A program made the translations under genes and the position numbers. The notes under the pieces were generated by a model, which searched no databases, had not been told where the DNA came from, and saw only the letters and a program-made list of their open reading frames with translations. A stretch of DNA of 64,000 nt, taken from the NCBI GenBank assembly GCA_001801685.1, contig MGYJ01000031.1:7909-71908 (forward strand), written 5' to 3'. The DNA is from Gammaproteobacteria bacterium RIFCSPHIGHO2_12_FULL_63_22 (GTDB lineage Bacteria; Pseudomonadota; Gammaproteobacteria; Xanthomonadales; Xanthomonadaceae). This document shows positions 28,193 to 44,069 of the stretch, piece after piece. Numbering within the stretch: the first letter of the stretch is position 1; the number at the start of each line of letters is the position of its first letter.

Positions 28193-28268
28193 GGGCCTAT
28201 AGCTCAATGGTTAGAGCGCGGGACTCATAATCCCTCGGTTCCAGGTTCGAGTCCTGGTGGGCCCACCA
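28193..28268 (+). tRNA. tRNA-Ile2 (anticodon CAT, lysidine type)
   Basis: 76-nt cloverleaf, loop CTCATAA, GGTTCGAGTCC T arm, encoded CCA; resembles ileX-type tRNAs more than Met tRNAs. Confidence 0.88.
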
Positions 28269-28447: not shown

Positions 28448-29692
28448 ATGCCCCTCTCGGATGCGGCCGTTCGCGGTGCTAGGCCAGCCGAAAAAACGTT
28501 CAAGCTTTCCGATGAGCGCGGAATGTTTTTGCTCGTGACTGCGGCCGGAGGCAAGCTCTGGCGCTTCAAGTACAGAATCCTGGGTAAAGAAAAACTACTC
28601 GCCTTGGGAGCCTATCCCGACGTGAGCCTTCGTGATGCGCGAGAGCGTCGAGATGAGGCGCGCAAACTCGTTGCCGCGGGAATCGATCCGAGCGAACGCA
28701 AGCAGATGCAGAAGCGGGCCGCGCTAAAGGCTGCGGGTGACACTTTTGAATCGATCTCCCGGGAATGGGTTGGCCGTCGTGGCAAGCATTGGACTGCTGC
28801 GCATGGCGCGCGCGAACTTCGTCGCCTCGAACGCGACCTGTTTCCATGGCTGGGAAAGCGCTCTATTTCCTCGATCGACGCCGCCGACTTGCTGGACGCG
28901 CTCCGGCGCGTCGAAGAGAGGGGTGCCATCGAGACAGCGCACCGACTACGCTCCCTGGCATCTCAGATATTTGCCTACGCAATCTCGACACGTCGCGCCT
29001 CGCGGAATCCTGCCGCTGACCTGACGGGCGACGCTCTGCAGCGGGCCACTCCCAAGCATCGAGCGGCCATTACAGACCCGGCCAAGATAGGAGGCCTCCT
29101 GCGGTCGTTTGATGCCTATGAGGGCACCTTTGTCACCAAGTCTGCGCTGCGCCTCGCGCCGCTGCTCTTCGTGCGGCCCGGCGAGCTGCGCCACGCCGAA
29201 TGGTCTGAGCTCGACCTAAGCAATGCCCTCTGGAGCATTCCGGCAGAAAAAATGAAGATGCGCCAAGCGCATGCGGTGCCCCTGAGTACTCAGGCAATAA
29301 CCATCCTGAGCGATCTCCAGGCGCTCACCGGCGGATCTCGTTACGCCTTTCCAAGTGCACGCAGTGACAAGCGGCCCATGAGCGACAACGCCGTTTTGTC
29401 GGCGCTCCGACGAATGGGGTACGCGAAAGATGAGATGAGCGGTCACGGATTCCGAGCGATGGCGCGCACCGTTCTGGACGAAGTGCTGCAATTTCGACCC
29501 GATTTCATCGAGCACCAGCTCGCCCATGCAGTCCGAGATCCCAATGGCCGGGCGTACAACCGCACAGCGCATTTGGCCGAGCGTAGAAAGATGATGCAGG
29601 CGTGGGCTGACTATCTCGACCAGCTCAAAACCGGTGGTGACGTGTTGCCTTTCCAGAAGAAGGGTGGCGAACGCCAGGAGGGGGCGAGGTAA
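28448..29692 (+). CDS. P4/CP4-57-type tyrosine integrase
   Basis: N-terminal arm-binding domain (LSDERGMFL, KLLALGAYP), VRPGELR, HGFR, QLAH, AYNR. Confidence 0.95.
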   Translation: MPLSDAAVRGARPAEKTFKLSDERGMFLLVTAAGGKLWRFKYRILGKEKLLALGAYPDVSLRDARERRDEARKLVAAGIDPSERKQMQKRAALKAAGDTFESISREWVGRRGKHWTAAHGARELRRLERDLFPWLGKRSISSIDAADLLDALRRVEERGAIETAHRLRSLASQIFAYAISTRRASRNPAADLTGDALQRATPKHRAAITDPAKIGGLLRSFDAYEGTFVTKSALRLAPLLFVRPGELRHAEWSELDLSNALWSIPAEKMKMRQAHAVPLSTQAITILSDLQALTGGSRYAFPSARSDKRPMSDNAVLSALRRMGYAKDEMSGHGFRAMARTVLDEVLQFRPDFIEHQLAHAVRDPNGRAYNRTAHLAERRKMMQAWADYLDQLKTGGDVLPFQKKGGERQEGAR

Positions 29693-30962: not shown

Positions 30963-32207
30963 ATGGCTCTCAATGACCCTCTGCCCGGCCGCTCAGTGCT
31001 CGGTTTGCGTCGAGCCGACCAGATTGTGTCGCGGGCCACGCCTTGGCTCATCGATGGGTGGTTGGTCGAGGGGACGCTCGCCGGGCTAGTTGCACCAAGT
31101 TCAACATGCAAAAGCTTTCTCGCAATCGATTGGGCTTGCTGCATCGCAACTGGCACGCCCTGGAACGGGCACGCCGTGAAAAAGCGGGCTGTTTGCTACC
31201 TGGCTGGGGAAGGACTTCACGGTTTGCGCAAGCGAATCGCCGCCTGGGAGATCGCCAACGGCATTTCCATCAAAGACGCTCCGCTATACCTCAGTGCCAG
31301 CCTTCCGTTTCTCTGCAACGATCTGTCTGCCATTGCGAGTATTGACGAAATGAATGAGGTCACTCTTGCTGGCCCGGGATTGGTGATCATCGACACGGTC
31401 GCTCGTGCAATGGGCGGCGCGAACGAGAATAGCGCGGAGCATATGTCCGCCCTCATCCGCTCGATGGACTGGTTCAAGCAGGAGCTCGGTGCGACAGTAC
31501 TTTCAGTGCACCACACAGGCAACAACCCTTCGAATCAGACGCGCGCACGGGGAAGCAGCGCATACCGCGCCGCCCTGGACAGCGAGTTTCTCCTCAAGGC
31601 GGTTGGCGCCCACGAAATCGAGCTGTCCGTTAGCAAATCGAAGGATTGGAGCGCTGAAGCAGCCTTGCGGTTGCGCAAGGTTCTGGTCCCGATCGAGCTT
31701 GAGGGTCAAGACGAATCGAGCTTGGTGCTTCGCCTCGTCACGAGCATCAAGACCGAAAATGCAAGGCTTACGCAGGTGCTCGCGCTGCGTGCTCAGGGAC
31801 TGAGCATCAGAAAGATCGCAGATGAGTTGAAGTTGAATCGCAGCATGGTCGAACGGTTGCTAAAGCCACACGGGAAATCCGAAGGCGAGACAGTAGCGGT
31901 TGTCTCGTCTCGGCCCCCTTATACAGGGGGTGCCGATGAGACAGCGTCCCGCCGAGACACAACGGCCGAGACAGTCCGAGACGTTCGAGACGGCGCCGAC
32001 GAGCGTTGCCAGGGACCAAGGGCGGTTCATCCAGGCCAGCAGCTTGCCGAAGGGGGGCTCGTGAATGACCCTGTAATCGTTGCGCGCGTGCGCGCGCGTG
32101 AGGGCGACAATATCGGCCCCATCGTTTTCGAGCGCCCGCACACGGGTGCAGCAACCGCAGACGCGCACGCGCGCGCTTACGAAGGCCTCAACGATGGCAT
32201 CCCGTAA
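30963..32207 (+). CDS. AAA_25 / RepA-like helicase with C-terminal HTH
   Basis: WLIDGW, Walker A-like APSSTCKS, Walker B VIIDT, VHHTG, RGSSA, LSIRKIADEL HTH. Confidence 0.85.
   Translation: MALNDPLPGRSVLGLRRADQIVSRATPWLIDGWLVEGTLAGLVAPSSTCKSFLAIDWACCIATGTPWNGHAVKKRAVCYLAGEGLHGLRKRIAAWEIANGISIKDAPLYLSASLPFLCNDLSAIASIDEMNEVTLAGPGLVIIDTVARAMGGANENSAEHMSALIRSMDWFKQELGATVLSVHHTGNNPSNQTRARGSSAYRAALDSEFLLKAVGAHEIELSVSKSKDWSAEAALRLRKVLVPIELEGQDESSLVLRLVTSIKTENARLTQVLALRAQGLSIRKIADELKLNRSMVERLLKPHGKSEGETVAVVSSRPPYTGGADETASRRDTTAETVRDVRDGADERCQGPRAVHPGQQLAEGGLVNDPVIVARVRAREGDNIGPIVFERPHTGAATADAHARAYEGLNDGIP
31887..31991. repeat. GAGAC iteron-like array around a palindrome (putative origin)
   Basis: Six direct GAGAC, two inverted GTCTC, CCCCCT-TATAC-AGGGGG at 31914-31930. 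Confidence 0.6.
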
Positions 32208-32791: not shown

Positions 32792-33160
32792 CTACTCGAT
32801 CCGCTCAAGTCCGGAAAAGGTGAACTCGACCGTGCCGATCCCGACCAGCGCGCCGGCCGTCAGCTCATTTCCCGTTTCGCCGTCCACCAGCGAAATCGTA
32901 GCGACATACGTTTCATGGCCTTTCTCTCGGTAGCCCTCGAACGCATCGAGCCATTCGTCCTGCGTAGTCTCATCTAGCTGACCAAACGTCTTGGTCGGAT
33001 TTACGCTTACGAAAACAACTGCCGATCTTCCGGCCTTGCTGAACCAGATTTGTGGGGCTGGGAGCCACCGATCGTCGATCGAATGAACCAACATTCCCTG
33101 TGTTGCCAATTGCTCGGCAACCAGCCTCAGACCTAGGGCGGTTGGTTCGGCGATGCTCAT
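32792..33160 (-). CDS. Hypothetical protein
   Basis: 122-aa globular-looking ORF divergent from the XRE gene. Confidence 0.6.
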   Translation of the reverse strand: MSIAEPTALGLRLVAEQLATQGMLVHSIDDRWLPAPQIWFSKAGRSAVVFVSVNPTKTFGQLDETTQDEWLDAFEGYREKGHETYVATISLVDGETGNELTAGALVGIGTVEFTFSGLERIE

Positions 33161-33702: not shown

Positions 33703-34182
33703 GTGAATGTCATTTTGGTCACTTGCTATGCAGCGGTCGTTGGAACTTTGGCCTTGGGTTGGCAGATCGTCTCCTGGCGAAAGTCTCGTCGACCGGACGT
33801 CGTAGTGTCCGCAAGATTAGCCGCCGACCGGGACGGGGAGGGTGTGATCGTGAGGGTGCTTACTGGTTCGGACGTCACGATCGTACGCGCCGGAGTTACG
33901 CCCAAGAATTGGGGCTGGCAACGATATTGGAACGAGATTTCAGTTCGATCTTGGGAGCTAGGCGATCAAACTTTCGGCAGCCAAGACTGCGGACTTCCGC
34001 TAAACGTGCGATCCTCTGAACGCTTGGTGGTCTGGTTTTCGAAGGTAGAACTGGCGTCTTCCGGAATTGGATACCGCGATGGAAAGCACTACGTCGCGTG
34101 GGTCGAAACGTCCCGCGGAACTCGGCACAAGTCCAACGGCTTCGGCGGGGATCGCAATTCCCAATGGCAGACGTTTTCGTGA
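33703..34182 (+). CDS. Hypothetical protein with N-terminal membrane anchor
   Basis: Hydrophobic first ~22 aa then beta-rich soluble domain. Confidence 0.55.
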   Translation: MNVILVTCYAAVVGTLALGWQIVSWRKSRRPDVVVSARLAADRDGEGVIVRVLTGSDVTIVRAGVTPKNWGWQRYWNEISVRSWELGDQTFGSQDCGLPLNVRSSERLVVWFSKVELASSGIGYRDGKHYVAWVETSRGTRHKSNGFGGDRNSQWQTFS

Positions 34183-34463: not shown

Positions 34464-36218
34464 CTAGGCGCGCGCCCGTTCAAAGCCATCCCATCGAGCA
34501 AAAGTGGGATCATCGCGAAGGGTGAGGTCTGAAGCCAGGACGCTGTCGAGTACGCGTCTTAGATCATCGAAGACCCAGAACTGAGCATTCGGGGATAGGA
34601 ACGCATCCATAAGTCTCAGCGCTGACCGAGGCTGCGCGTTCACATGTTGCGAGTCGGCCAGCTCTCGGAGCAGGAATTCGTTCTCGCCCGGGCGGATGAA
34701 CTGTAAGACCGTCGCGACGGCATCTTCGAATGCTCCGTTCGTCGCAAGCGCCATCTCCACCCATGGGCGGGCTTCCTTTGCGCTCCTAATCTGCGGGTCG
34801 CGGGGCCAGAACTTCTGGATCCAAGGCTTTACCTTTTCAGCCCACACCGCGTCCGGATCAACCGTGTGGTCGTCCGCACGCCTAAGCGCACTTACGACCC
34901 AGTCCAGCATGCCTGCGCGCGTCTCCGAACTCATCCGGCGGATCGCGCCCTGTGTGGCTTGGCGCGGCAAATCGTCGAGTCCGATGTGGAGCCCAGCGGC
35001 AGCCAAGGCTTGGGCCAGAGGGCCAACGGTCTCGCCCAGCTGATGGATCCGATCCGCTTGAAAGCAGTCGAGGAAGTCGGTCTTGATCTCGTTCCATAGC
35101 AGTGGATCGAGGTGAGGCTGCCAACCGAAGCCCTGCCAGACTGCGAGCGCTTCGGTCTCGTCACGCTCCCACCGGAAATAGGGTAGCAAATGCAAACGCG
35201 TGAGGTCGGGATCGATCGCGAAGAGATATGAAAGGCGCGAGGCGAAGACGACACGGGCGGGACGATGGCGAGCCTCTCCGGCGCCGACTAGGCGAACAAA
35301 GCGCTCCGTCAGCTCCGCGGGGATGCCTCCACCCACTACCAGGCGCCTTGCGAACAAAGCGTTGAGAAAGGCGAGCGCTAGGTTCCCCATGGACGTGTTG
35401 ATGGCAACAGCAGCCCAGTCGTGATCATCAGGACGGCGCGAATTGGTATCGTCCAGAGCAACCCCTGGCACCACTTTGTCAAACGCTCGCCAGAAGTCCT
35501 CTGTCGACATTTCTCGAAACTGCGCGGAGGATGCCGCGGACTCCAATAGGTAAGCAGCCGCAGAGGAAACACTGGGATCATGTGCCAGCACGTCGTCCAA
35601 TGCAGCGACCAACAAAAGCACATCTTCGCCAGGCGTGGGCGTCGCGGCCTTGGTTCGGAGACCCCAGAGCGTCGCAGTCCAGAGTTCGGCGTCGGGCCCT
35701 GTCCGGTCCGCCACGTCGCGGAGCACCGACATCATCTTCTCCCAATCACTCGCCACCATCTCCCGCCAGCCGTTCAGCGTACCTTCTCGTTGATCTGCGG
35801 ATAGTTCTTCGACAATCTCGGCTGGAGTCATCGCTTGCAGGCGGCGCTTGTCGTCCACAGCCTCTAAGGCGCGCCATCCCGACTGGCTGTAAAACGAGAA
35901 GTGTGCCTGCTCGCCCGGAGCGACATCCCACTTGGGATAGCGCACCCGCAAGCGGGCAAGCTCCGCCTCCATCGCCGCATGTGGCCGCTCGGGATCCAAC
36001 CGTTGCATGATCCGTAGCCGCTCGAATACGCGCCGCGCGCGGAGCTGATCGCGTTCAGCCTCGGGCAGGTGGTCAGACATCCATGCGGGTGGTCCCGCCG
36101 CGATCTTCTCGACCAAGGCGTTACGGGCGTCCTCTTCCAGCTGTGGCCACAGCGCAACCAAGAGGTCATAGACCTCCTTCCTCGCCGAGATATCCCAGAG
36201 TGCGGGCACGTTAGCCAT
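34464..36218 (-). CDS. C-terminal half of Dsr1-like defence-associated sirtuin
   Basis: 584 aa from ATG 36218; helical Trp-rich segments (LWDISARKEV, AINTSMG, VWQGFGW, KPWIQKFWP) recall the Dsr1 C-terminus. Confidence 0.75.
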   Translation of the reverse strand: MANVPALWDISARKEVYDLLVALWPQLEEDARNALVEKIAAGPPAWMSDHLPEAERDQLRARRVFERLRIMQRLDPERPHAAMEAELARLRVRYPKWDVAPGEQAHFSFYSQSGWRALEAVDDKRRLQAMTPAEIVEELSADQREGTLNGWREMVASDWEKMMSVLRDVADRTGPDAELWTATLWGLRTKAATPTPGEDVLLLVAALDDVLAHDPSVSSAAAYLLESAASSAQFREMSTEDFWRAFDKVVPGVALDDTNSRRPDDHDWAAVAINTSMGNLALAFLNALFARRLVVGGGIPAELTERFVRLVGAGEARHRPARVVFASRLSYLFAIDPDLTRLHLLPYFRWERDETEALAVWQGFGWQPHLDPLLWNEIKTDFLDCFQADRIHQLGETVGPLAQALAAAGLHIGLDDLPRQATQGAIRRMSSETRAGMLDWVVSALRRADDHTVDPDAVWAEKVKPWIQKFWPRDPQIRSAKEARPWVEMALATNGAFEDAVATVLQFIRPGENEFLLRELADSQHVNAQPRSALRLMDAFLSPNAQFWVFDDLRRVLDSVLASDLTLRDDPTFARWDGFERARA

Positions 36219-38259
36219 CAAGGAGATGCTCCAATTTTTGGTTCCACGAAAATCCTTGGGCGTGGTTGAGTGCAGCAAGTCCGAGCCTGCGAAGCACGGC
36301 GGCTTCGCTGGCGAGCCACTCACCGACGATTCGACGGCTTGCGACCGGATCAACTTGGTCAAGGTGCTGCCAGCCGTGCCAGATCAGCGTGATTATCAGC
36401 GTCCACTTCTCGTAGCCGCGGTTCTGCGCGTGCGGGACGATAGATGGGCGATGAAAGACGGAGACATCGGTCCCAGCGGATGCTTGCTCTATCAATGTGA
36501 ATAGATCCGCGGTCCGCCTGAGCATCGTGGTGAGTTCAGGCAAGATTGAAGCCAGGAACGCAGCGGATTCGTCGCGCGCCAGGATGCGCTCAACAAGGAG
36601 GCCCACCTGGGCGTCCCCCGGAATTACTACCTTTGCGTTAACGACTTCAGACAATCGTACTCCTCTTGCCTTCTCTTCCTCTCCCTCGGCATTCGGATTG
36701 AAGTCGGGAAGTCGCGTATCGAAAGGTTGTGCGAGGGAAACAGACGTGCGTAGTGCCGACAGCAGATCGACCTTGAACGCCAGAGCGTCGTCCCCGACGG
36801 CGAGCGTTTCGGGCACCTTCAACTCGAAAGGGAATAGCCGGCCCAACGCCAAAGTGTCTACAGAGGTGGACGTAATCAGTTTCCAGAGCTTGGCCAACCC
36901 AGGCTTCACGTCGCCCCCTTCTCGAAGAGATTGGCGAATCCGAGCCAATAGAAAGGGGTGCAAGAACCTCCGGTTGGCGAGTTTCTGGATCACGCGCGCC
37001 GCGAAGCCGTAGTCGTCGATGTGCTGGGCGAGCCAGCGCGCCAGGTGCACCGACTGCGGTGGCAGTTGCGTGTCCCGAGCGTCATGCGCCCAGGGGAACA
37101 GCGGCTCGATGACGAGTTGCGGGTGAGGAGGCAGGTCGTCACCTTCGACTTGAGCGGCTTCCACCGCTTTCTTGTGGCTCGCCAGAATATCCGTCTCACG
37201 TCGCTCGAACTCGTCAAACCACTCGATTGGTGGGCGCTTCTTCATGTCCGCGAACGCCTTGGCGCCGTGGCCGGCGTCTGTCGGTCGCCCACATAAAGCC
37301 CATACGAGGTTCGCCACGTCGCTCGGATTGATAGTGGAGGGCCGTTTCGGGGCAATTCGAGCGATCAAACCCAAAGTGCTTTTTAGATAGTCTTCTCGCG
37401 CATCGGCCCACGCGACGATCGTATTGCGAAGATGCCGATGGTCTTTCGTTTGCCGGTAAAAGATAGGCCTGAGATTGCGGTGACGATAGGGCGCGTCATC
37501 GGGGTCGTCCTTGCCTTTGTGAGGCACAAAGATGTAGGCCGGAGAGCGGTTGGACGCCACGCGCGACGATGAGTTCTCAGCGGCGAAAGCATCAGTCATG
37601 TAACGAAGTACGGGATCGTTGAGGCTGTATCCGATGAAAAGCACGGTGAAATCGCTAAACAGCTTGGCGACAAAACGCGCAGCCCATGCATCGGTCAGAT
37701 AGGAGCGCCCGAAATCCGCACTTGTCAGGACGAGATGTTCGTTAGCACCCACCTCGTCCAGTCGGCCATGCAGGTAGACCACGCTGCGCCAAGTCACAGC
37801 CTTGTCGTTGCGCGGAATAGGCAGGATTGGTCCCGAGTGCAGATCCTTGCCGAAGTGCCATTCGGTTCTTGCTTGCTCGAATAGCGTGTCGAAGTTCGTG
37901 GTAACGAGCCGAACTCCAGTGTCGCCGCGTAGCTTCGCGAGCCTAAGAATGGCTCTGTGCATGTCGAGCGAAGTTGGCGCTGCGGAAAGACACCTGTGGA
38001 CAGCGTCTCGCACCTGCGCCCTTCCGAACTTACCTTCAAGGCTGCCCAGCATGCGATCTGGCCAGAGCCATTCAGAAGACTTCTTCATGGGAAGCGTCTC
38101 TGCAAGCTCGTCATAGCAATACTTGACCAAGCCGACATAGCTAGGGAGCCCAGCCCCCATCGAGATGCCTGCGCCGCAGAAGATCACTACACGATCATCT
38201 TCGAGCGACTGCACTAGCTCGTCCGGGACGACGGGCCCTGCTTTGACGAACTTAGGCAT
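36211..38259 (-). CDS. N-terminal half of Dsr1-like defence-associated sirtuin (SIR2 NADase domain)
   Basis: FCGAGIS, TTNFD, YLHG, SADFGRSYL, FIGYSLNDP SIR2 motifs; GGAGGG RBS before ATG 38259. Confidence 0.85.
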   Translation of the reverse strand: MPKFVKAGPVVPDELVQSLEDDRVVIFCGAGISMGAGLPSYVGLVKYCYDELAETLPMKKSSEWLWPDRMLGSLEGKFGRAQVRDAVHRCLSAAPTSLDMHRAILRLAKLRGDTGVRLVTTNFDTLFEQARTEWHFGKDLHSGPILPIPRNDKAVTWRSVVYLHGRLDEVGANEHLVLTSADFGRSYLTDAWAARFVAKLFSDFTVLFIGYSLNDPVLRYMTDAFAAENSSSRVASNRSPAYIFVPHKGKDDPDDAPYRHRNLRPIFYRQTKDHRHLRNTIVAWADAREDYLKSTLGLIARIAPKRPSTINPSDVANLVWALCGRPTDAGHGAKAFADMKKRPPIEWFDEFERRETDILASHKKAVEAAQVEGDDLPPHPQLVIEPLFPWAHDARDTQLPPQSVHLARWLAQHIDDYGFAARVIQKLANRRFLHPFLLARIRQSLREGGDVKPGLAKLWKLITSTSVDTLALGRLFPFELKVPETLAVGDDALAFKVDLLSALRTSVSLAQPFDTRLPDFNPNAEGEEEKARGVRLSEVVNAKVVIPGDAQVGLLVERILARDESAAFLASILPELTTMLRRTADLFTLIEQASAGTDVSVFHRPSIVPHAQNRGYEKWTLIITLIWHGWQHLDQVDPVASRRIVGEWLASEAAVLRRLGLAALNHAQGFSWNQKLEHLLDG

Positions 38260-38534
38260 TTCCACCCTCCTGTCGTGTCGAAGTACATCTTAGGACGGCA
38301 ACCAGGTCGTCGGGCTGCACCTTCTGGCCCTCAGAAGACATTGATTGAGAGCGGTACACGCCAAGAAAGGGACTCGGGAGCTCACCTAGCACCCGAATTG
38401 GGTGCCTAGGGTGCCGTCATAATGGGGATATTAGTTAGAAGCAATTCCCTCATACCCCCAATAACGTCCCCGGCAACGGACCGATTGGCCTCATCGACGA
38501 AAAGCCGCTTCCTGACAAAGGCTAGACCGGTGCC

Positions 38535-40973
38535 TCAAGCCTGGGGTTGACGCTGGTAAAGGTATTTTTGGAACCCGGCGAAGAGCCGGCCGATTTCTTC
38601 GGCCTTCCCCAGATCCTCCAAGGCATCACGAATTGAGTCGTTGTACTTGAGCTTCAGCAACGGAGTGAGTTTCTCCTGGTCAAGCTCCTGAACGCCCACA
38701 TTGACGTAGTGGGATAGCACAAACTCTAGGAACGCCTGCTGCTTGTCATTGCATTGTTTAGTGATAGCCGCCTTGGCCTTCGCTGCGCGTTCCTCCCGGC
38801 TGATCGGTGGCAGTGCATAGGCCACGTTGGCCAGAACATCAAAGAGGTCGCTCTTCTGCGCGTCAATTAGCTTCTGCATCTCCTCCAACTGGTCATTGGC
38901 AAAGCCTTTCTCAGCCAGAGCTTGGAGAAGTTTCTTACGAGTGTCCGGCATGCTCCACAAGGTACGCAGCTCATCCTCGTCCTTGAAGAACTCCGGCAGC
39001 GTGCCGAATAGGCTTTCCAGGAACTGGGCGGCAGACATGGGCTTGCCGTCGGCACTCCAGAAGGTCGTGGCCACCATGCTTTGAATGTGGCGGGCCTTGC
39101 CGTCTGCCAGTTTCACGAGGACCTTCTTCTTGCATACACAAGGGTCTTCGCCGCATTTTTCGCAGGGTGGCCGTTCGCATTCACAGGGCGACTTGCCGCA
39201 TTTCTCACAATGTTTCGGCTCGCAAGTGCATGGCGACTGATTGCAAACCCGGCACGGCTCCGGTGGCGTCTCTTCGCAGGTGCATGGGTAGTTGCCGCAC
39301 TTCTTGCAATCCTCCGGCGGAAGCGGCTCGCCATCCCACTCCGGATCGTTGAAGTGCTCGTGGGCCTTCACGAAATCGTAGACGGTGAAATAGTCCTTGC
39401 CGTCGTAGAGCCGTGTGCCCCGGCCGATGATCTGCTTGAACTCGATCATCGAGTTGATCGGCCGCATCAGGACGATGTTACGGATGTTCCTAGCATCAAC
39501 TCCCGTCGACAGCTTTTGTGAGGTCGTCAAGATGGTTGGGATCGACTTGTCGTTGTCCTGGAAGTCACGCAGGTGCTGGTCGCCCCTGGCCCCGTCGTCA
39601 GCCGTGACCCGCACGCAGTAGTCAGGATCGGTGCTGGTCTTCGTCTGGTTGATCAGGTCGCGCACCATTAGCGCGTGTTCCTGAGTTGCGCAGAAAACCA
39701 GCGTCTTCTCGCGCTGGTCGATCAAGTCCATGAAGAGTTTGATGCGATGTGCTTCGCGCTCCCGGATCACGATGACGCGATTGAAGTCGCCCTCGGTGTA
39801 GCGTTTTCCTTGCACCACCTCGCCTTCCACAACTGCATCGTCCGGAGTGTAGGTGTAGTCATCAATGGTTGTGGCGAACTGTCTGACTTTGAACGGGGAC
39901 AGGAAGCCATCGTTGATTCCTTCCTTCAGCGAGTAGCTGTAAACAGGCTCTCCAAAGTAGGCATAGGTGTCGACGTTGTTCCTACGCTTGGGTGTGGCTG
40001 TCAGACCCAGCTGCACAGCTGGCTTGAAGTAATCGAGGATGGCCCGCCAGTTGCTCTCGTCCCTGGCACCGCCCCGGTGGCACTCGTCAATGACGATGAA
40101 GTCAAAGAAGTCCGCTGGGTAGTCACCAAAATAGGGGGTATCCCCGGGGCCACTCATGAAGGTCTGGAAGATCGTGAAGAAGACGCTCCCATTCTTCGGC
40201 ACGCGGCCCTTCTTGCGAATCTCATCGGGGGCAATTCGCACAAGAGACCCCGGAGCCTTGTCCTCGAACGGAGTGAAGGCGTTGTAAGCCTGATCGGCCA
40301 GGATGTTTCGATCGGCCAGGAACAGAATGCGGGGCCGGCGGGTCGGTTCTCCCGGCCGCTTCCAGTCGTCTAGGTTCCACCGACTGTAGAACAGCTTCCA
40401 GGCTAGCTGGAAGGCGATAAAGGTCTTGCCGGTGCCTGTTGCGAGGGTCAGCAGGATACGGTCCTTGCCGGCCGCTATGGCGGCCAGGACGCGGTCAATG
40501 GCGATGTCCTGGTAGTAGCGGCTCTGCCAAGTGCCGCCGTGGTCCTCGAAGGGCACCTGGACAAAGCGGTCGCGCCAGGCGTTCGTCTCGGCGAAGGTCC
40601 GCGCCCACAGTTCCTCCGGCCCCGGGAAGGCTGAGACATCGCCCTCGGTGCCCGTGGCCATGTCGATGCCGTAGATCTTCTTGCCATTGGTCGCGTAGGT
40701 GAAGCGCACGGCCAGCTTGGCGGCGTAGCTTTTAGCTTGCCCTACGCCCTCGGTATAGGGCTTGTCCCATGCCTTGGCCTCGATCACGGCCAGCTTGGTG
40801 TTCCGGTAGATCAGCACATAGTCGGCAATCTCTGGCGTCGCCCTTTTCCCGCCCCCCTGCAGTCGCCCCGGCGTTATGTGCTCCCGGCGGATTCGACTCC
40901 CTTCAACCACGCCCCAGCCGGCCGCCTTGAGGGCGGGATCAATGTGCTCGGCGCGGGTCTCGGCTTCGTTCAT
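38535..40973 (-). CDS. hsdR: Type I restriction enzyme R subunit (EcoEI-like)
   Basis: IEAK nuclease motif, ATGTGKT, IDECHRG, QIIGRGTR. Confidence 0.93.
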   Translation of the reverse strand: MNEAETRAEHIDPALKAAGWGVVEGSRIRREHITPGRLQGGGKRATPEIADYVLIYRNTKLAVIEAKAWDKPYTEGVGQAKSYAAKLAVRFTYATNGKKIYGIDMATGTEGDVSAFPGPEELWARTFAETNAWRDRFVQVPFEDHGGTWQSRYYQDIAIDRVLAAIAAGKDRILLTLATGTGKTFIAFQLAWKLFYSRWNLDDWKRPGEPTRRPRILFLADRNILADQAYNAFTPFEDKAPGSLVRIAPDEIRKKGRVPKNGSVFFTIFQTFMSGPGDTPYFGDYPADFFDFIVIDECHRGGARDESNWRAILDYFKPAVQLGLTATPKRRNNVDTYAYFGEPVYSYSLKEGINDGFLSPFKVRQFATTIDDYTYTPDDAVVEGEVVQGKRYTEGDFNRVIVIREREAHRIKLFMDLIDQREKTLVFCATQEHALMVRDLINQTKTSTDPDYCVRVTADDGARGDQHLRDFQDNDKSIPTILTTSQKLSTGVDARNIRNIVLMRPINSMIEFKQIIGRGTRLYDGKDYFTVYDFVKAHEHFNDPEWDGEPLPPEDCKKCGNYPCTCEETPPEPCRVCNQSPCTCEPKHCEKCGKSPCECERPPCEKCGEDPCVCKKKVLVKLADGKARHIQSMVATTFWSADGKPMSAAQFLESLFGTLPEFFKDEDELRTLWSMPDTRKKLLQALAEKGFANDQLEEMQKLIDAQKSDLFDVLANVAYALPPISREERAAKAKAAITKQCNDKQQAFLEFVLSHYVNVGVQELDQEKLTPLLKLKYNDSIRDALEDLGKAEEIGRLFAGFQKYLYQRQPQA

Positions 40974-41098
40974 GGAGGAATCCTACAACTACCCGGTGCG
41001 GTCTTGGTGCAGCAGGACCCATTCAATGCCTCCGGCGGCACTAGCTTCTGCCGGTTGACGAGGAAGGGGCGTTCGTTTCGAACCCTCACTCTGGTGAA

Positions 41099-41440
41099 CT
41101 ACCCCTCGGCTTGCTTGCGCTCGGCAACTGTCCGTCTACGCCATTCTTGGATGAAACCAACAAACTCCTGGATTAGGATTTCCCGCATCTCGTCTTCATC
41201 CATGCCGAACTCTGTGGGCAACGGGAAATAGTCACTGGCAGCAGCGGCGATGTAGTCAGCCGCAAGGTCTGTGGCCGAGTCCCGATCATCGGCACCGAAC
41301 AAGAGTTCCTCGGAGGTGGAAATGTGGCTATCGAGCCAAACGCCCGGATCGCCGAGGTTGTCTAACTCTACAAATTGCTGGCCGGGCCAGTCGCTCGGCC
41401 AGTGGGCAATGATCGGCTCTGCGGGTTCGTCGTTGCTCAT
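41099..41440 (-). CDS. Acidic hypothetical protein between hsdS and hsdR
   Basis: 113-aa ORF with ATGA overlap on the hsdS stop. Confidence 0.65.
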   Translation of the reverse strand: MSNDEPAEPIIAHWPSDWPGQQFVELDNLGDPGVWLDSHISTSEELLFGADDRDSATDLAADYIAAAASDYFPLPTEFGMDEDEMREILIQEFVGFIQEWRRRTVAERKQAEG

Positions 41441-42615
41441 AGCTCCCCACTGAAAGCTTGGCGCAGCAGCGACTTCTTCAACGCTTGCAGCGCGGCGATC
41501 TTACGCTCGTAGAGTCGGGCGAGGCGTTGGGTTTCATGGTGGAGGTCATCAAGGTTCGCGGCGAGTTGCTTTTGCTTCTTCACGTCGGGAAGCAAAACCC
41601 GAAACTCGAACAAGTGGTCGCGATTGACTTTCGGCATTCCCGCCCGGGCAGAACCTCGGATTGCGTAATCCGTGAAGGGTTTACTCAGCAACAAGTGAAA
41701 GAGGTAGTCGCGAGTAACTACGCTGGGGATTGGCGCGAGCGGATACATGTCTGCGCTGCACAATCCCTCGAAGTCTGGGCGAGCAACCTTCATCAGATAA
41801 GGGCGAATCTTGCTGTACAGCACCATTGATTCGTCGAAGAGGAACTTGCCGGAAATCAGGCCTTCTTCTCGTGCCGTCTTGAGGTCTACGAACACGCCGG
41901 TCTTTGATTCGATGTTACCCGCGCCGACGTGGGTCAAATCGAGGAACTCTTTTTTCCGTGGGTCAACGAGCGTTGAAGTAATCGCGCAGACTTCGTCGAA
42001 TCGCTTCTCCACCCACCCCGGGCCGCGCTGGGTGAAGACGGATTGGAGGCGGCTTTCGAAGATTCCGCGGACGTTTTGGAGGTTCTTTTCGGCATTGGCT
42101 TTGGCGGTGGCGATGCCCTCAAACGCTTCGTCGAGCAGGCCGACAATCCGCTGCTGTTCTGCCAGCGGGGGGGCGGGAATCGTGAGAGCCCCAAGCTTCG
42201 TCGCATTGAATCCGCCTTGTGCACTACCAGATGAACCGTCTTTGATCGACTGCCAGTAGCCAGCGGTTTGGAAGAACAGCATGACGAACTCCGGCAGCAA
42301 CTTCTTGTCGAGCAAGCGGAGCCGAATCAGATACGAAGCGAACACTGCTTCGGGCGGCTCGTCCACGAGGAAGCTCTTGCCAGTCGTTGCTCCGGTGCGC
42401 GCAAAAACAATGTCACCGCTGGCCAGCCGGTATTTGGGAATATCGGCGCTTTCGATCTTGCAGTAAGGCACAGTGTCCCATTCAACACGGTCGTCCTGGA
42501 TGTCCGTGATGCGGAGAAAACGCGGGCCGACTAGTTCTCTGGTCGCGCTTTCGGTGTAGCCGTAGTTGATGGCCGACACCGCTCCGAGCTCTTTAGTTTC
42601 CCAACCCTTCTTCAT
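41437..42615 (-). CDS. hsdS: Type I restriction-modification specificity subunit
   Basis: Two TRDs with conserved PPLAEQQRIV and KKSLLRQAFSGEL segments. Confidence 0.93.
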   Translation of the reverse strand: MKKGWETKELGAVSAINYGYTESATRELVGPRFLRITDIQDDRVEWDTVPYCKIESADIPKYRLASGDIVFARTGATTGKSFLVDEPPEAVFASYLIRLRLLDKKLLPEFVMLFFQTAGYWQSIKDGSSGSAQGGFNATKLGALTIPAPPLAEQQRIVGLLDEAFEGIATAKANAEKNLQNVRGIFESRLQSVFTQRGPGWVEKRFDEVCAITSTLVDPRKKEFLDLTHVGAGNIESKTGVFVDLKTAREEGLISGKFLFDESMVLYSKIRPYLMKVARPDFEGLCSADMYPLAPIPSVVTRDYLFHLLLSKPFTDYAIRGSARAGMPKVNRDHLFEFRVLLPDVKKQKQLAANLDDLHHETQRLARLYERKIAALQALKKSLLRQAFSGEL

Positions 42616-44069
42616 AGCAGCGCCTTGATGTTGCCCAGCACTTCCGCGCTCTCGGCGTCCAGCGCGGCGATTTCGTCCATGATGTCTTGCGGGCTGCGGT
42701 GCGCGATTTCCTCGCCACCGTTGGGGTTCTTCACGGACAAATCAAAGCTCTTCGGATCGATGGCCGCCACGTCCACGCTCCAGCTTTTGGGCGAGTCGAC
42801 TTTGGTCTTTTGCAGTGCGATGAACTCGGCGAGGTCGGCGTCGTTGAGCGGGTTGGTCTTGCCCATGTTGCGGCCGGGGTCGAGCTGGTAGAACCACACC
42901 TTTCGGGTCTTTGTGCCCTTATCGAAGAACAGTACTACGGTCTTCACGCCCGCGCCGATAAACGTTCCGCCGGGGCAGTCGAGTACCGTGTGCAGGTTGC
43001 AGCTTTCCAGGAGCAGCTTGCGCAGGCTGACCGAGGCGTTGTCGGTGTTCGACAGGAAAGTATTCTTAATGACGATGCCGCCGCGCCCGCCGGCCTTGAG
43101 AATCTTTATGAAGTGCTGCAGGAACAGGAACGCGGTTTCGCCGGTGCGTATGGGGAAGTTCTGCTGTACCTGCTTGTGTTCGTTGCCGCCAAAGGGCGGA
43201 TTGGCCAGAACCACGTCATATCGATGTTTTTCCTGGATGTCGGCGAGGTTCTCCGAAAGCGTATTGGTGTGGAGGATATTGGGCGCCTCGATGCCATGCA
43301 GGATCATGTTCATGATCGCGATGACGTAGGCAAGCGACTTTTTCTCCTTCCCGTAGAACGTCTTCTCCTGGAGAAACCGGTCCTGGGCGACCGTGCGCTT
43401 GGGATGGGTTCTCTTCAGGTAGTCGAATGCCTCGCACAAGAAGCCCGCAGAGCCGACCGCCCCGTCATAGATGCGCTCCCCTAGCTGGGGCCGTGTGACC
43501 TCGATAATGGCGCGGATAAGCGGGCGTGGCGTGTAGTACTCGCCGCCGTTCCGCCCGGCGTTGCCCATGTTCTTGATCTTCGCTTCGTACAGGTGCGATA
43601 GCTCGTGCTTCTCAACCTGGGAGCGGAAGCGGAGTTCGTCGACATGCTCGATTACCTCCCGCATGTTGTAGCCGCTGGAGATCCGGTTCTTGATCTCGCC
43701 GAAGATCTCGCCGATCTTGTACTCAGTCGTATTGGTGCCGCTTGCTCGTTGCTTGAACCCGTGCAGATAGGGGAAGAGCTTGTTGTTGACGAAGTCCCGC
43801 AGGTCATCCCCTGTCAGCGCCTTGTTGTGGTCCAGCTTGCCGTCCTTGCCCTTGGGGGCGGCCCACGCCTCCCAGCGGTATGGCTTGTCCAGGATGTAGC
43901 TGTACTTCTTCCCCTCCAGCTTGGCCTGGTCGAATAGGTCCTGCTCTAGGCCGTCAAGGTACTTGAGAAACAGCAGCCAAGACGTCTGTTCGGTGTAGTC
44001 CAGTTCTGTGGTGCAACCGGCTTCCTTCCATAGGACGTCATCGATGTTCTTGAAGGTCTGTTCAAACAC
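42612..44069 (-). CDS. hsdM: Type I restriction-modification N6-adenine methyltransferase
   Basis: GEYYTPR, DGAVGSAGFL, ANPPF. Confidence 0.95.
   Translation of the reverse strand: MFEQTFKNIDDVLWKEAGCTTELDYTEQTSWLLFLKYLDGLEQDLFDQAKLEGKKYSYILDKPYRWEAWAAPKGKDGKLDHNKALTGDDLRDFVNNKLFPYLHGFKQRASGTNTTEYKIGEIFGEIKNRISSGYNMREVIEHVDELRFRSQVEKHELSHLYEAKIKNMGNAGRNGGEYYTPRPLIRAIIEVTRPQLGERIYDGAVGSAGFLCEAFDYLKRTHPKRTVAQDRFLQEKTFYGKEKKSLAYVIAIMNMILHGIEAPNILHTNTLSENLADIQEKHRYDVVLANPPFGGNEHKQVQQNFPIRTGETAFLFLQHFIKILKAGGRGGIVIKNTFLSNTDNASVSLRKLLLESCNLHTVLDCPGGTFIGAGVKTVVLFFDKGTKTRKVWFYQLDPGRNMGKTNPLNDADLAEFIALQKTKVDSPKSWSVDVAAIDPKSFDLSVKNPNGGEEIAHRSPQDIMDEIAALDAESAEVLGNIKALL

What the first reader, a model, noticed from the sequence alone, without database searches (positions are those of the whole stretch)
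34464..38259. Dsr1-like sirtuin split into two overlapping ORFs: natural two-subunit form or frameshift
Seen: the SIR2-containing ORF (682 aa) stops at ...HLLDG-TAA (36211). A second ORF in the +1 frame begins at ATG 36218 within ATGGCTAA, an 8-nt overlap like the hicA/hicB junction, with GGAG 10 nt upstream. Both halves are long and free of stops and sum to about 1,270 aa. Known from memory: full-length Dsr1 is of similar size and homology appears to run straight across this junction. Inference: either a functional split into effector and sensor subunits or a one-base insertion (recent inactivation or sequencing error).
Basis: partly seen in the sequence, partly recalled or inferred. Interest (0 to 1): 0.7.

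Follow-up and report, generated by a model that had tools for sequence, protein, structure and literature searches.

The report
Naturally split two-gene Dsr1 sirtuin defence
The anti-phage sirtuin Dsr1 is encoded here as two overlapping, translationally coupled genes, and the same 8-base overlap in about twenty diverged bacterial loci shows this is an old, selected two-subunit form cut inside the sensor region, not a frameshift or sequencing error.

Summary
On the minus strand, a 682-aa SIR2 ORF (38259-36211) ends in TAA inside ATGGCTAA. A 584-aa ORF (36218-34464) starts at that ATG, and GGAG lies 10 nt upstream.

The two ORFs together cover the Dsr1 profiles end to end:
- NCBIfam NF041818: positions 2-695 and 701-1260 of 1263.
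- PADLOC PDLC04167: positions 2-655 and 670-1234 of 1248.

The split is not a lesion.
- 19 loci, counting the window, have the same 8-nt ATGNNTRR overlap at the same codon. They are 34-49% identical in protein and come from Pseudoxanthomonas, Rhizobium, Mesorhizobium, Sphingomonas, Maritimibacter, Seohaeicola and metagenomes. One further locus has an 11-nt version.
- In an exhaustive search, the roughly 20 nearest clusters to ORF2 are stand-alone proteins of 583-599 aa.
- Both halves are under purifying selection (dN/dS 0.16 and 0.28) and diverge together (r = 0.92).
- The SIR2 catalytic residues Asn122 and His164 are invariant.
- Fused relatives sit nested inside the split clade. One differs at the junction by a single T, so fused and split forms can interconvert by a one-base change.

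The cut lies inside the helical sensor region, not at the SIR2/sensor boundary. This is a new variant of a known system, of moderate interest.

The parts
36211..38259 (-). dsr1N: 682-aa subunit made of the SIR2 NADase domain (about residues 1-290) and an alpha-helical region (about 291-682)
   Evidence: ORF and translation. Pfam SIR2_2 2e-21. PADLOC Dsr1 profile 2-655/1248, 5e-111. NCBIfam NF041818 2-695/1263. The fold resembles DSR2 and ThsA SIR2. 14 orthologous N-ORFs of 669-685 aa share the same start motif.
37495..37908 (-). Core of the SIR2_2 domain (ORF1 residues 118-255). It includes the catalytic Asn122 (TTNFD, codon 37896-37894) and His164 (YLHGR, codon 37770-37768).
   Evidence: Pfam match. 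His164 aligns with KomC His146, the residue mutated in PDB 9xvc (H146N), and TTNFD aligns with TTNYD. N122 and H164 are invariant in 15 split N-ORFs.
38266..38270 (-). GGAGG Shine-Dalgarno sequence of dsr1N, 6 nt upstream of ATG 38259
   Evidence: Read directly from the sequence.
36211..36218 (-). 8-nt overlap ATGGCTAA holding the dsr1C start codon (36218-36216) and the dsr1N stop codon (36213-36211); a translational-coupling junction
   Evidence: The same ATGNNTRR (one GTGNNTGA) overlap is found at the same codon in L002-L004, L006-L015, L017, L018, L021, L023, L024 and L033, with all three stop codons used. L016 has an 11-nt variant.
36229..36232 (-). GGAG 10 nt upstream of the dsr1C start; a likely ribosome-binding site that also encodes the conserved Leu-Glu of ORF1
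   Evidence: GGAG or GAGG is present at the same spacing in 14 of 16 split loci. It is also present in fused relatives, where it encodes L-E, so it cannot be separated from a coding constraint.
34464..36218 (-). dsr1C: 584-aa all-alpha solenoid subunit, equivalent to the C-terminal 45% of single-chain Dsr1
   Evidence: PADLOC Dsr1 profile 670-1234/1248, 8e-80. NCBIfam NF041818 701-1260/1263. AF2 model has pLDDT 87, pTM 0.75 and is all helical. It gives only generic ARM/HEAT/karyopherin-like fold matches. The nearest roughly 20 clusters are stand-alone proteins of 583-599 aa aligned end to end.

Best explanation
This is a natural, conserved two-gene version of the anti-phage sirtuin Dsr1.

**The two subunits.** dsr1N (682 aa) encodes the SIR2 NADase domain plus the first ~390 residues of the helical region. 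dsr1C (584 aa) encodes the rest of the helical solenoid.

**Expression (inferred).** The genes overlap by 8 nt (ATGGCTAA). A ribosome finishing dsr1N most likely re-initiates on dsr1C, helped by the GGAG 10 nt upstream, which would give roughly equal amounts of the two chains.

**Function (inferred from family knowledge).** The two chains probably assemble non-covalently to rebuild the Dsr1 architecture. In single-chain Dsr1, an Avs7-type bilobed helical-repeat sensor recognises a phage protein; for E. coli Dsr1 this is the major capsid protein. That recognition releases SIR2 NADase activity, NAD+ falls, and phage replication stops.

**Origin (inferred).** The split most likely arose once in this clade by a one-base insertion. 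The site already carried an out-of-frame ATG (from Asp/Asn-Gly codons) and a GGAG (from Leu-Glu codons). One-base changes have reversed the split several times.

**What is shown:** the gene anatomy, the homology covering the whole Dsr1 profile, conservation of the junction, purifying selection on both genes, co-divergence of the two genes, and intact catalytic residues.

**What is inferred:** translational coupling, physical assembly, the trigger, NAD+ depletion and defence.
For: - **Anatomy:**
- **Profile coverage:** the two ORFs cover the Dsr1 profiles end to end.
- **Closest N-half relatives are split.** The three nearest N-halves (47-49% identity) are stand-alone proteins of 695-722 aa, each followed by an ORF of 586-597 aa with an 8-nt overlap.
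- **Closest C-half relatives are split.** In an exhaustive phmmer search of 1.84 billion representatives, the roughly 20 best clusters are stand-alone proteins of 583-599 aa aligned from residue 1. Fused proteins appear only lower down.
- **Named genomes.** 19 genome loci include isolates and one complete chromosome. 19 loci in all, counting the window, have ATGNNTRR at the same codon with TAA, TGA or TAG stops. In 5 loci a stop codon sits directly before the ATG in the ORF2 frame, which fixes the start.
- **Selection.** dN/dS against a Pseudoxanthomonas MAG is 0.155 for the N half and 0.277 for the C half.
- **Co-divergence.** N- and C-half pairwise identities correlate at r = 0.92; Mantel test 0 of 5000 permutations.
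- **Catalytic residues.** N122 and H164 are invariant, and H164 aligns with KomC H146.
- **Self-contained cassette.** No flanking ORF is shared among 15 loci.
- **Tree.** An inner clade of 22 clusters (support 99) holds 18 split and 4 fused forms, with the fused ones nested. Fused P0006 reads AATGGCGAC where split loci read AATGGCTGAC.
- **Setting.** An integrase-bearing island next to a tRNA, also carrying a type I RM system.
- **Literature.** Dsr1 depletes NAD+ (bioRxiv 10.1101/2021.12.14.472415). The Dsr1 sensor is Avs7-like and bilobed and is triggered by the major capsid protein (PMC12803255).
Against:
- Assembly of the two chains, the trigger and NADase activity are inferred from single-chain relatives that are only 25-44% identical.
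- The two ORFs together score about 650 bits on NCBIfam NF041818, against an equivalog cut-off of 1400. The clade is therefore diverged from canonical Dsr1, and its trigger may differ.
- The GGAG upstream of ORF2 is also required by the conserved Leu-Glu codons, so it is not independent evidence for a ribosome-binding site.
- The direction of change (fission first, then re-fusions) rests on parsimony over a quick tree with several unresolved forks.
- I could not show that the cut falls at the hinge between the two sensor lobes. No Avs7 or Dsr1 structure is in the PDB copy, and fused proteins exceed the 1200-aa folding limit.
Confidence: 0.87

Rival explanations
1. Recent frameshift: a single-chain dsr1 gene was inactivated in this genome by a one-base insertion, so it is a pseudogene.
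For: Fused and split forms differ by one base at the junction. An A5 run lies 20 nt upstream of the junction.
Against: - The same 8-nt overlap at the same codon occurs in 19 loci whose proteins are only 34-49% identical.
- Both ORFs stay open over 584-685 codons in all of these loci.
- dN/dS is 0.16 and 0.28 since divergence from an already split relative.
- The nearest relatives are all split.
Confidence: 0.02
2. Sequencing or assembly error in this draft genome (99 contigs) created an apparent frameshift.
For: The genome is a draft assembly. Reads could not be inspected.
Against: An independent Pseudoxanthomonas MAG from another sample has the identical junction GATGGCTAAC while differing at about 9% of nucleotides elsewhere. 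About 18 further loci, from different projects and sequencing platforms, share the same architecture.
Confidence: 0.01
3. Programmed +1 ribosomal frameshifting at the overlap yields a full-length fused Dsr1, alone or alongside the separate chains, in the manner of prfB.
For: ORF2 is in the +1 frame. The ORF1 stop codon lies at the shift site. An SD-like GGAG lies upstream, and prfB also uses an upstream SD (established knowledge).
Against: - The two variable bases of ATGNNTRR (GC, TC, GT, CC, GG, AC, GA) and the preceding codon vary freely, so there is no conserved slippery codon.
- What is conserved is the ATG/GTG start, which a frameshift would not need.
- The GGAG spacing is 10 nt to the ATG, not the ~3 nt seen in prfB.
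- L016 has an 11-nt overlap that keeps start and stop but changes the geometry.
Confidence: 0.04
4. The two chains do not simply rebuild Dsr1. Instead dsr1C works as a dissociable regulator, for example an inhibitor released on infection or a partner recruited only when the phage trigger bridges the two chains.
For: - In Avs7 the two sensor lobes clamp the capsid protein and the C-lobe autoinhibits the effector (PMC12803255).
- The cut lies inside the sensor.
- The helical part of ORF1 and ORF2 evolve at the same fast rate, 41% and 42.5% mean identity against 65% for SIR2.
- An orphan C-half with no upstream SIR2 gene exists (L029).
Against: Nothing favours conditional over constitutive assembly. 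The tight co-divergence (r = 0.92) and repeated re-fusion to a single chain suggest the two chains work as a permanently associated unit that tolerates covalent linkage.
Confidence: 0.15

Closest known systems
Dsr1 / DSR1, defence-associated sirtuin 1 (Gao et al. 2020; Garb et al., bioRxiv 10.1101/2021.12.14.472415; NCBIfam NF041818; PADLOC PDLC04167; EcDsr1 in PMC12803255)
   Same: It has an N-terminal SIR2 domain with catalytic Asn and His, followed by ~950 residues of helical repeats. Homology covers the whole profile. It sits in a defence island. The presumed mechanism is the same: a phage protein is sensed and NAD+ is depleted.
   Different: It is encoded as two translationally coupled genes of 682 and 584 aa rather than one chain of ~1250 aa. 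It is diverged: 25-44% identity to fused relatives, and 410 + 240 bits against an equivalog cut-off of 1400.
Split DSR1 forms cut at the SIR2/sensor boundary (SIR2 of ~300 aa plus a sensor of 946-1076 aa). These appear in earlier unchecked AI notes of this scan. PMC12803255 mentions 'split proteins' only in its Methods.
   Same: They are two overlapping genes that together equal Dsr1, and they are conserved and unannotated as such.
   Different: Here the cut is ~390 residues further in, inside the helical sensor region, so SIR2 stays covalently attached to part of the sensor. The earlier notes report swapping of SIR2 cassettes; here the two genes co-diverge strictly.
Avs7 (STAND NTPase with a bilobed TPR sensor that clamps the phage major capsid protein; PMC12803255)
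   Same: According to that paper its sensor domain is homologous to the Dsr1 sensor. It offers a structural rationale for a sensor made of two lobes.
   Different: It has no STAND NTPase and a different effector. Homology of this locus to Avs7 was not tested here, because the libraries hold no Avs7 sequence or structure.
DSR2 (SIR2 + MID + CTD alpha-solenoid; senses the phage tail tube; PDB 8wy8, 8xew and others)
   Same: The ORF1 model gives its best fold matches to DSR2 chains (E 4e-6, SIR2 domain TM ~0.6). The overall logic of SIR2 plus a helical sensor is shared.
   Different: There is no sequence-level match to DSR2 models in PADLOC, and TM-scores over the full length are low (0.2-0.3). 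It is a different family.
Two-gene SIR2 systems (SIR2-HerA, SIR2/pAgo, Thoeris ThsA/ThsB)
   Same: A SIR2 NADase effector is encoded next to a separate partner gene.
   Different: In those systems the partner is an unrelated protein (ATPase, Argonaute or TIR). Here the partner is the missing C-terminal part of the same ancestral polypeptide.

Membership tests
Dsr1 (defence-associated sirtuin 1) | N-terminal SIR2 domain with the catalytic Asn and His | tested here: met
   Pfam SIR2_2 2e-21. TTNFD N122 and YLHGR H164 are present. H164 aligns with KomC H146. Both residues are invariant in 15 orthologues.
Dsr1 (defence-associated sirtuin 1) | Homology to the Dsr1 profile along its whole length, including the ~950-aa helical region | tested here: met
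   PADLOC PDLC04167: positions 2-655 (ORF1) and 670-1234 (ORF2) of 1248. NCBIfam NF041818: positions 2-695 and 701-1260 of 1263.
Dsr1 (defence-associated sirtuin 1) | Score above the curated equivalog cut-off of NCBIfam NF041818 (1400 bits) | tested here: not met
   ORF1 scores 409.9 bits and ORF2 239.9 bits. Even their sum is below 1400. This is a diverged subfamily, not the canonical equivalog.
Dsr1 (defence-associated sirtuin 1) | Single-gene system encoding one polypeptide of ~1200-1300 aa | tested here: not met
   There are two ORFs with an 8-nt overlap. The arrangement is conserved in 19 loci.
Dsr1 (defence-associated sirtuin 1) | Avs7-type bilobed helical-repeat sensor that binds a phage structural protein (the major capsid protein for EcDsr1) | tested here: inconclusive
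   The ORF2 model is a confident all-alpha solenoid, but it gives only generic ARM/HEAT matches. No Avs7 or Dsr1 structure is in the PDB copy. The trigger cannot be tested with these tools.
Dsr1 (defence-associated sirtuin 1) | NAD+ depletion on infection and protection against phage | not testable with these tools
   This needs expression in a laboratory strain, phage challenge and NAD+ measurement.
Dsr1 (defence-associated sirtuin 1) | Location among other defence genes or on mobile elements | tested here: met
   The window holds tRNA(CAT) 28193-28268, integrase 28448-29692 and type I RM hsdR/S/M 38535-44069. Relatives lie next to integrases, a resolvase, prophage genes and toxin-antitoxin genes.
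DSR2 | Sequence match to DSR2 models and the SIR2-MID-CTD architecture in one ~1000-aa chain | tested here: not met
   No Dsr2 model appears among the PADLOC hits. Only the fold of the SIR2 domain resembles DSR2, and full-length TM-scores are 0.2-0.3.

The most novel reading that the evidence does not exclude
The cut coincides with the hinge between the N- and C-lobes of the Avs7-type sensor. Each lobe would then be a separate protein, and the phage trigger (for example a capsid protein monomer) would act as the glue that brings the free C-lobe subunit onto the SIR2-N-lobe subunit. Activation would be ligand-induced heterodimerisation rather than an intramolecular clamp.

The one-base toggle between fused and split forms, seen at least three times in this clade, would then be an evolutionary switch between two activation regimes.
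Probability: 0.15. Interest if true: 0.65.

Novelty: new variant of a known kind. Interest (0 to 1): 0.42.

Why it matters
**Annotation.** Dsr1 is treated in the literature and in PADLOC, DefenseFinder and NCBIfam as a one-gene system. A conserved clade in which it is two genes means annotation pipelines will miss it or call it a pseudogene. Neither half reaches the NCBIfam cut-off.

**Mechanism.** The cut lies inside the sensor rather than between enzyme and sensor. It therefore marks a natural domain boundary in a ~950-residue sensor whose structure is not yet solved for Dsr1. It also supplies a ready-made two-piece system for asking how the sensor controls SIR2: does the C-terminal lobe inhibit, is it recruited by the trigger, and can lobes be exchanged?

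**Evolution.** The repeated one-base interconversion between fused and split forms is a clean example of how gene fission can produce a working, translationally coupled operon in a single step.

**Limits.** Gene fission and fusion are common in defence systems, and no new biochemistry is implied. The interest is moderate.

Tried and rejected
- **DNA search of 40 relatives' genomes.** Only the window's own genome matched. The cassette is accessory, so close synteny could not be compared.
- **Sequence search of the PDB.** With ORF2 and with a 22-sequence profile, nothing was found.
- **Fold search of the ORF2 model.** Only generic ARM/HEAT/karyopherin solenoids came back, with TM below 0.4, so the lobes could not be assigned.
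- **Model of ORF1.** Quality is only moderate (pLDDT 69.7, with the SIR2 core at residues 110-192 poorly modelled). I used it only for domain extent and for the DSR2/ThsA resemblance.
- **Search for a conserved third gene.** There were 0 cross-locus blastp hits among 337 flanking ORFs. The idea of a larger operon is rejected.
- **Promoter and terminator scan.** Nothing exceeded the shuffled expectation.
- **Stand-alone C-halves outside the window's clade.** I could not settle whether they show a general hot spot for fission.
  - P0085 is cut by a contig end.
  - P0090 is an orphan.
  - L030 is a clean independent split with an ATGA overlap about 14 residues upstream.
  - L031 and L032 have 53- and 23-nt overlaps and could be real splits or frameshift artefacts.
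  - My selection criterion favours proteins that begin near this site, so the hot-spot idea remains only suggestive.
- **Programmed frameshifting.** Considered and judged unlikely; see the rival explanations.


Full report
**1. The observation**

The genes lie on the minus strand. ORF1 starts at ATG 38259 and ends with TAA at 36213-36211. It is 682 aa and ends ...FSWNQKLEHLLDG. ORF2 starts at ATG 36218 and ends with TAG at 34466-34464. It is 584 aa and begins MANVPALWDISARKE.

The junction on the minus strand reads CTC CTT G[ATG GCT AA]C GTG. The ORF2 start and the ORF1 stop therefore share 8 nt, and ORF2 is in the +1 frame. GGAG (36232-36229) lies 10 nt upstream of the ATG.

The ORF listing extends ORF1 to a GTG at 38265. 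That codon lies within the GGAGG Shine-Dalgarno sequence (38270-38266) that precedes ATG 38259. All 14 orthologues examined start MP[KRQT]F[VI]xxGPxVPDxL at the position of the ATG.

**2. Both ORFs are Dsr1**

- Pfam finds SIR2_2 in ORF1 (residues 118-255, 2e-21) and nothing in ORF2.
- PADLOC Dsr1 model PDLC04167 (1248 positions) matches ORF1 at positions 2-655 (5e-111) and ORF2 at 670-1234 (8e-80).
- NCBIfam NF041818 (Dsr1 equivalog, 1263 positions) matches at 2-695 (410 bits) and 701-1260 (240 bits).

The two ORFs cover the single-chain profile end to end. Their combined score is far below the 1400-bit equivalog cut-off, so this is a diverged Dsr1 subfamily.

The SIR2 catalytic residues are intact. 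In the alignment to the solved SIR2 NADase KomC, TTNFD (N122) matches TTNYD. YLHGR (H164) matches the His146 that was mutated in PDB 9xvc. Both residues are invariant in 15 orthologues.

**3. Split or broken?**

I searched with an artificial concatenate of the two ORFs. It found fused proteins of 1235-1283 aa at 36-44% identity. The most similar N-terminal halves (47-49%) were stand-alone proteins of 695-722 aa on contigs of 14-33 kb. On each of those contigs the next gene encodes 586-597 aa and overlaps by exactly 8 nt. The overlaps are ATGTCTAA, ATGGCTGA and ATGGTTGA.

An exhaustive phmmer search of 1.84 billion representatives with ORF2 gave, as its roughly 20 best clusters, stand-alone proteins of 583-599 aa aligned from residue 1 to the end. 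Fused proteins appear only below about 280 bits.

A scan of one genome per species returned 19 loci. They include:
- a Pseudoxanthomonas MAG (88% protein identity);
- Pseudoxanthomonas sp. 3HH-4;
- Maritimibacter fusiformis;
- Rhizobium sp. Root1220;
- Mesorhizobium carmichaelinearum;
- Sphingomonas tagetis;
- the complete chromosome of Seohaeicola saemankumensis.

I scripted a junction comparison.
- 19 loci, counting the window, have an ATGNNTRR overlap at the same codon (one has GTG). TAA, TGA and TAG are all used, and the two middle bases vary.
- L016 has an 11-nt version (ATGGCGCCTAG).
- In five loci a stop codon directly precedes the ATG in the ORF2 frame, which fixes the start.
- L018 has further damage downstream. 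L019, L020 and L022 lack the junction.

The Pseudoxanthomonas MAG differs from the window at about 9% of nucleotides yet has the identical GATGGCTAAC junction. dN/dS between the two is 0.155 for the N half and 0.277 for the C half.

A recent frameshift or a sequencing error is therefore excluded for practical purposes, even though reads could not be inspected.

**4. How the two genes relate to each other and to fused forms**

Across 15 loci the pairwise identities of the N and C halves correlate at r = 0.92 (Mantel test, 0 of 5000 permutations). The genes are inherited and diverge as a unit.

None of 337 flanking ORFs is shared between loci. The pair is a self-contained mobile cassette with no third partner.

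Fused relatives read straight through the junction with two fewer residues, as expected when 8 nt are read twice. Fused P0006 has CTC AAT GGC GAC where split loci have CTC AAT GGC TGA C, a difference of one T.

The fused genes already contain an out-of-frame ATG, from Asp/Asn-Gly codons (GAT GG, AAT GG). They also contain a GGAG or GAGG, from the conserved Leu-Glu codons. A single inserted base could therefore create, in one step, a stop codon, a start codon and a ribosome-binding site in the right geometry. This last point is an inference.

Trees of the C-terminal halves (FastTree on 129 rows; IQ-TREE on 37 rows) give the following.
- The window falls in a clade of 28 clusters (support 99): 21 split and 7 fused.
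- An inner clade of 22 clusters (support 99) holds 18 split forms, with 4 fused ones nested at three places (P0003; P0004/P0005; P0006).
- The most economical reading is one fission at or near the base of this clade, followed by at least three re-fusions. The alternative, many independent fissions to the same 8-nt configuration, is much less likely.

**5. Where the cut lies**

The SIR2 fold occupies roughly residues 1-290 of ORF1. The best fold matches are DSR2 and ThsA SIR2 domains. From about residue 272 the model is helical. ORF2 is a confident all-alpha solenoid (pLDDT 87, pTM 0.75), with only generic ARM/HEAT/karyopherin-like matches.

The helical part of ORF1 (41% mean pairwise identity) evolves like ORF2 (42.5%) and unlike the SIR2 domain (65%). 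The cut is therefore inside the sensor region, about 390 residues past the SIR2 domain. It is not at the effector/sensor boundary.

A 2026 preprint (PMC12803255) reports three relevant points.
- The Dsr1 sensor is homologous to the Avs7 sensor.
- AlphaFold models of it show a sharply bent, bilobed repeat structure.
- The phage major capsid protein triggers E. coli Dsr1. In Avs7 the two lobes clamp the capsid protein.

It is tempting to place the cut at the inter-lobe hinge, but I could not test this.
- No Avs7 or Dsr1 structure is in the PDB copy.
- Fused relatives exceed the folding limit.

An independent split in another Dsr1 clade (L030) has an ATGA overlap about 14 residues upstream. This suggests the region is a permissive linker. 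My selection of 'split' proteins is biased towards this site, so the point is only suggestive.

**6. Mechanism proposed**

- *Shown:* two conserved, co-diverging genes under purifying selection that together equal Dsr1, with an intact SIR2 active site, in an integrative defence island. The island carries tRNA(CAT) 28193-28268, integrase 28448-29692, an AAA_25 protein 30963-32207 and type I RM 38535-44069.
- *Inferred:*
  - Termination-reinitiation at the 8-nt overlap gives near-equal amounts of the two chains.
  - The chains associate to rebuild the Dsr1 sensor.
  - A phage structural protein is recognised.
  - SIR2 hydrolyses NAD+ and phage replication is blocked, as reported for single-chain DSR1 (bioRxiv 10.1101/2021.12.14.472415).
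- *Programmed +1 frameshifting* is unlikely. No slippery codon is conserved, whereas the start codon is.

**7. Comparison with what is known, and novelty**

I found no paper describing a two-gene Dsr1. PMC12803255 mentions 'split proteins' only in its Methods.

Earlier AI notes of this scan (unchecked leads, not evidence) report many split DSR1 systems. Those are cut at the SIR2/sensor boundary (SIR2 of ~300 aa plus a sensor of 946-1076 aa), and some show swapping of SIR2 cassettes. The present form is cut elsewhere and shows strict co-divergence.

I therefore class it as a new variant of a known kind. It is real, conserved and unannotated, and useful as a natural dissection of the sensor. It implies no new biochemistry. 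Interest is moderate (0.42).

Noticed in passing
L030:815-4746: An independent two-gene Dsr1 in a different clade: a 729-aa SIR2 ORF and a 581-aa ORF with a 4-nt ATGA overlap. The cut is about 14 residues upstream of the window's site. A NACHT/HEAT-like gene follows downstream.
   Followed up: partly
L029:645-2420: A stand-alone Dsr1 C-half (P0090, 591 aa) with no SIR2 gene upstream. Only small opposite-strand ORFs lie there. It may be an orphan sensor fragment or the result of a rearrangement.
   Followed up: no
L019:3680-5548 (Sphingomonas sp. GB1N7): The Dsr1 C-half homology starts only at residue ~82. It is preceded in the same frame by unrelated sequence, so this looks like a recombined or truncated copy.
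   Followed up: no
L018:3354-4474 (Microvirga lupini Lut6): It has the same ATGGTTGA junction, but a further frameshift a few codons into the C-half and a run of N. It is either a decayed copy or a draft-quality problem.
   Followed up: no
L008 (Maritimibacter fusiformis) and L009 (Planctomycetota MAG): The junction DNA is nearly identical in genomes assigned to different phyla. This could be very recent transfer or a mis-binned contig in the MAG.
   Followed up: no
L026:3001-9807 (Stenotrophomonas maltophilia): The fused relative P0004 lies next to terminase and portal genes, so it is probably carried on a prophage. Fused P0003 (L025) sits beside an integrase and is followed by an ORF of more than 1295 aa with no Pfam match.
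   Followed up: no
window 39132-39308 (-), inside hsdR 38535-40973: The HsdR translation contains a run of Cys-rich repeats (CxxCxxxPCxC, four or more) between the helicase core and the EcoEI_R_C domain. A first-stage note on this already exists.
   Followed up: no
window 33703-34182 (+) and 32792-33160 (-): Two ORFs of 159 and 122 aa lie between the island's HTH_3 gene and dsr1C. Neither has a Pfam match, and their function is unknown.
   Followed up: no
L031:1146-4797 and L032:1029-4767: Two further SIR2 + C-half pairs in other Dsr1 clades have long overlaps of 53 and 23 nt. I could not tell whether they are genuine splits or frameshift artefacts.
   Followed up: partly
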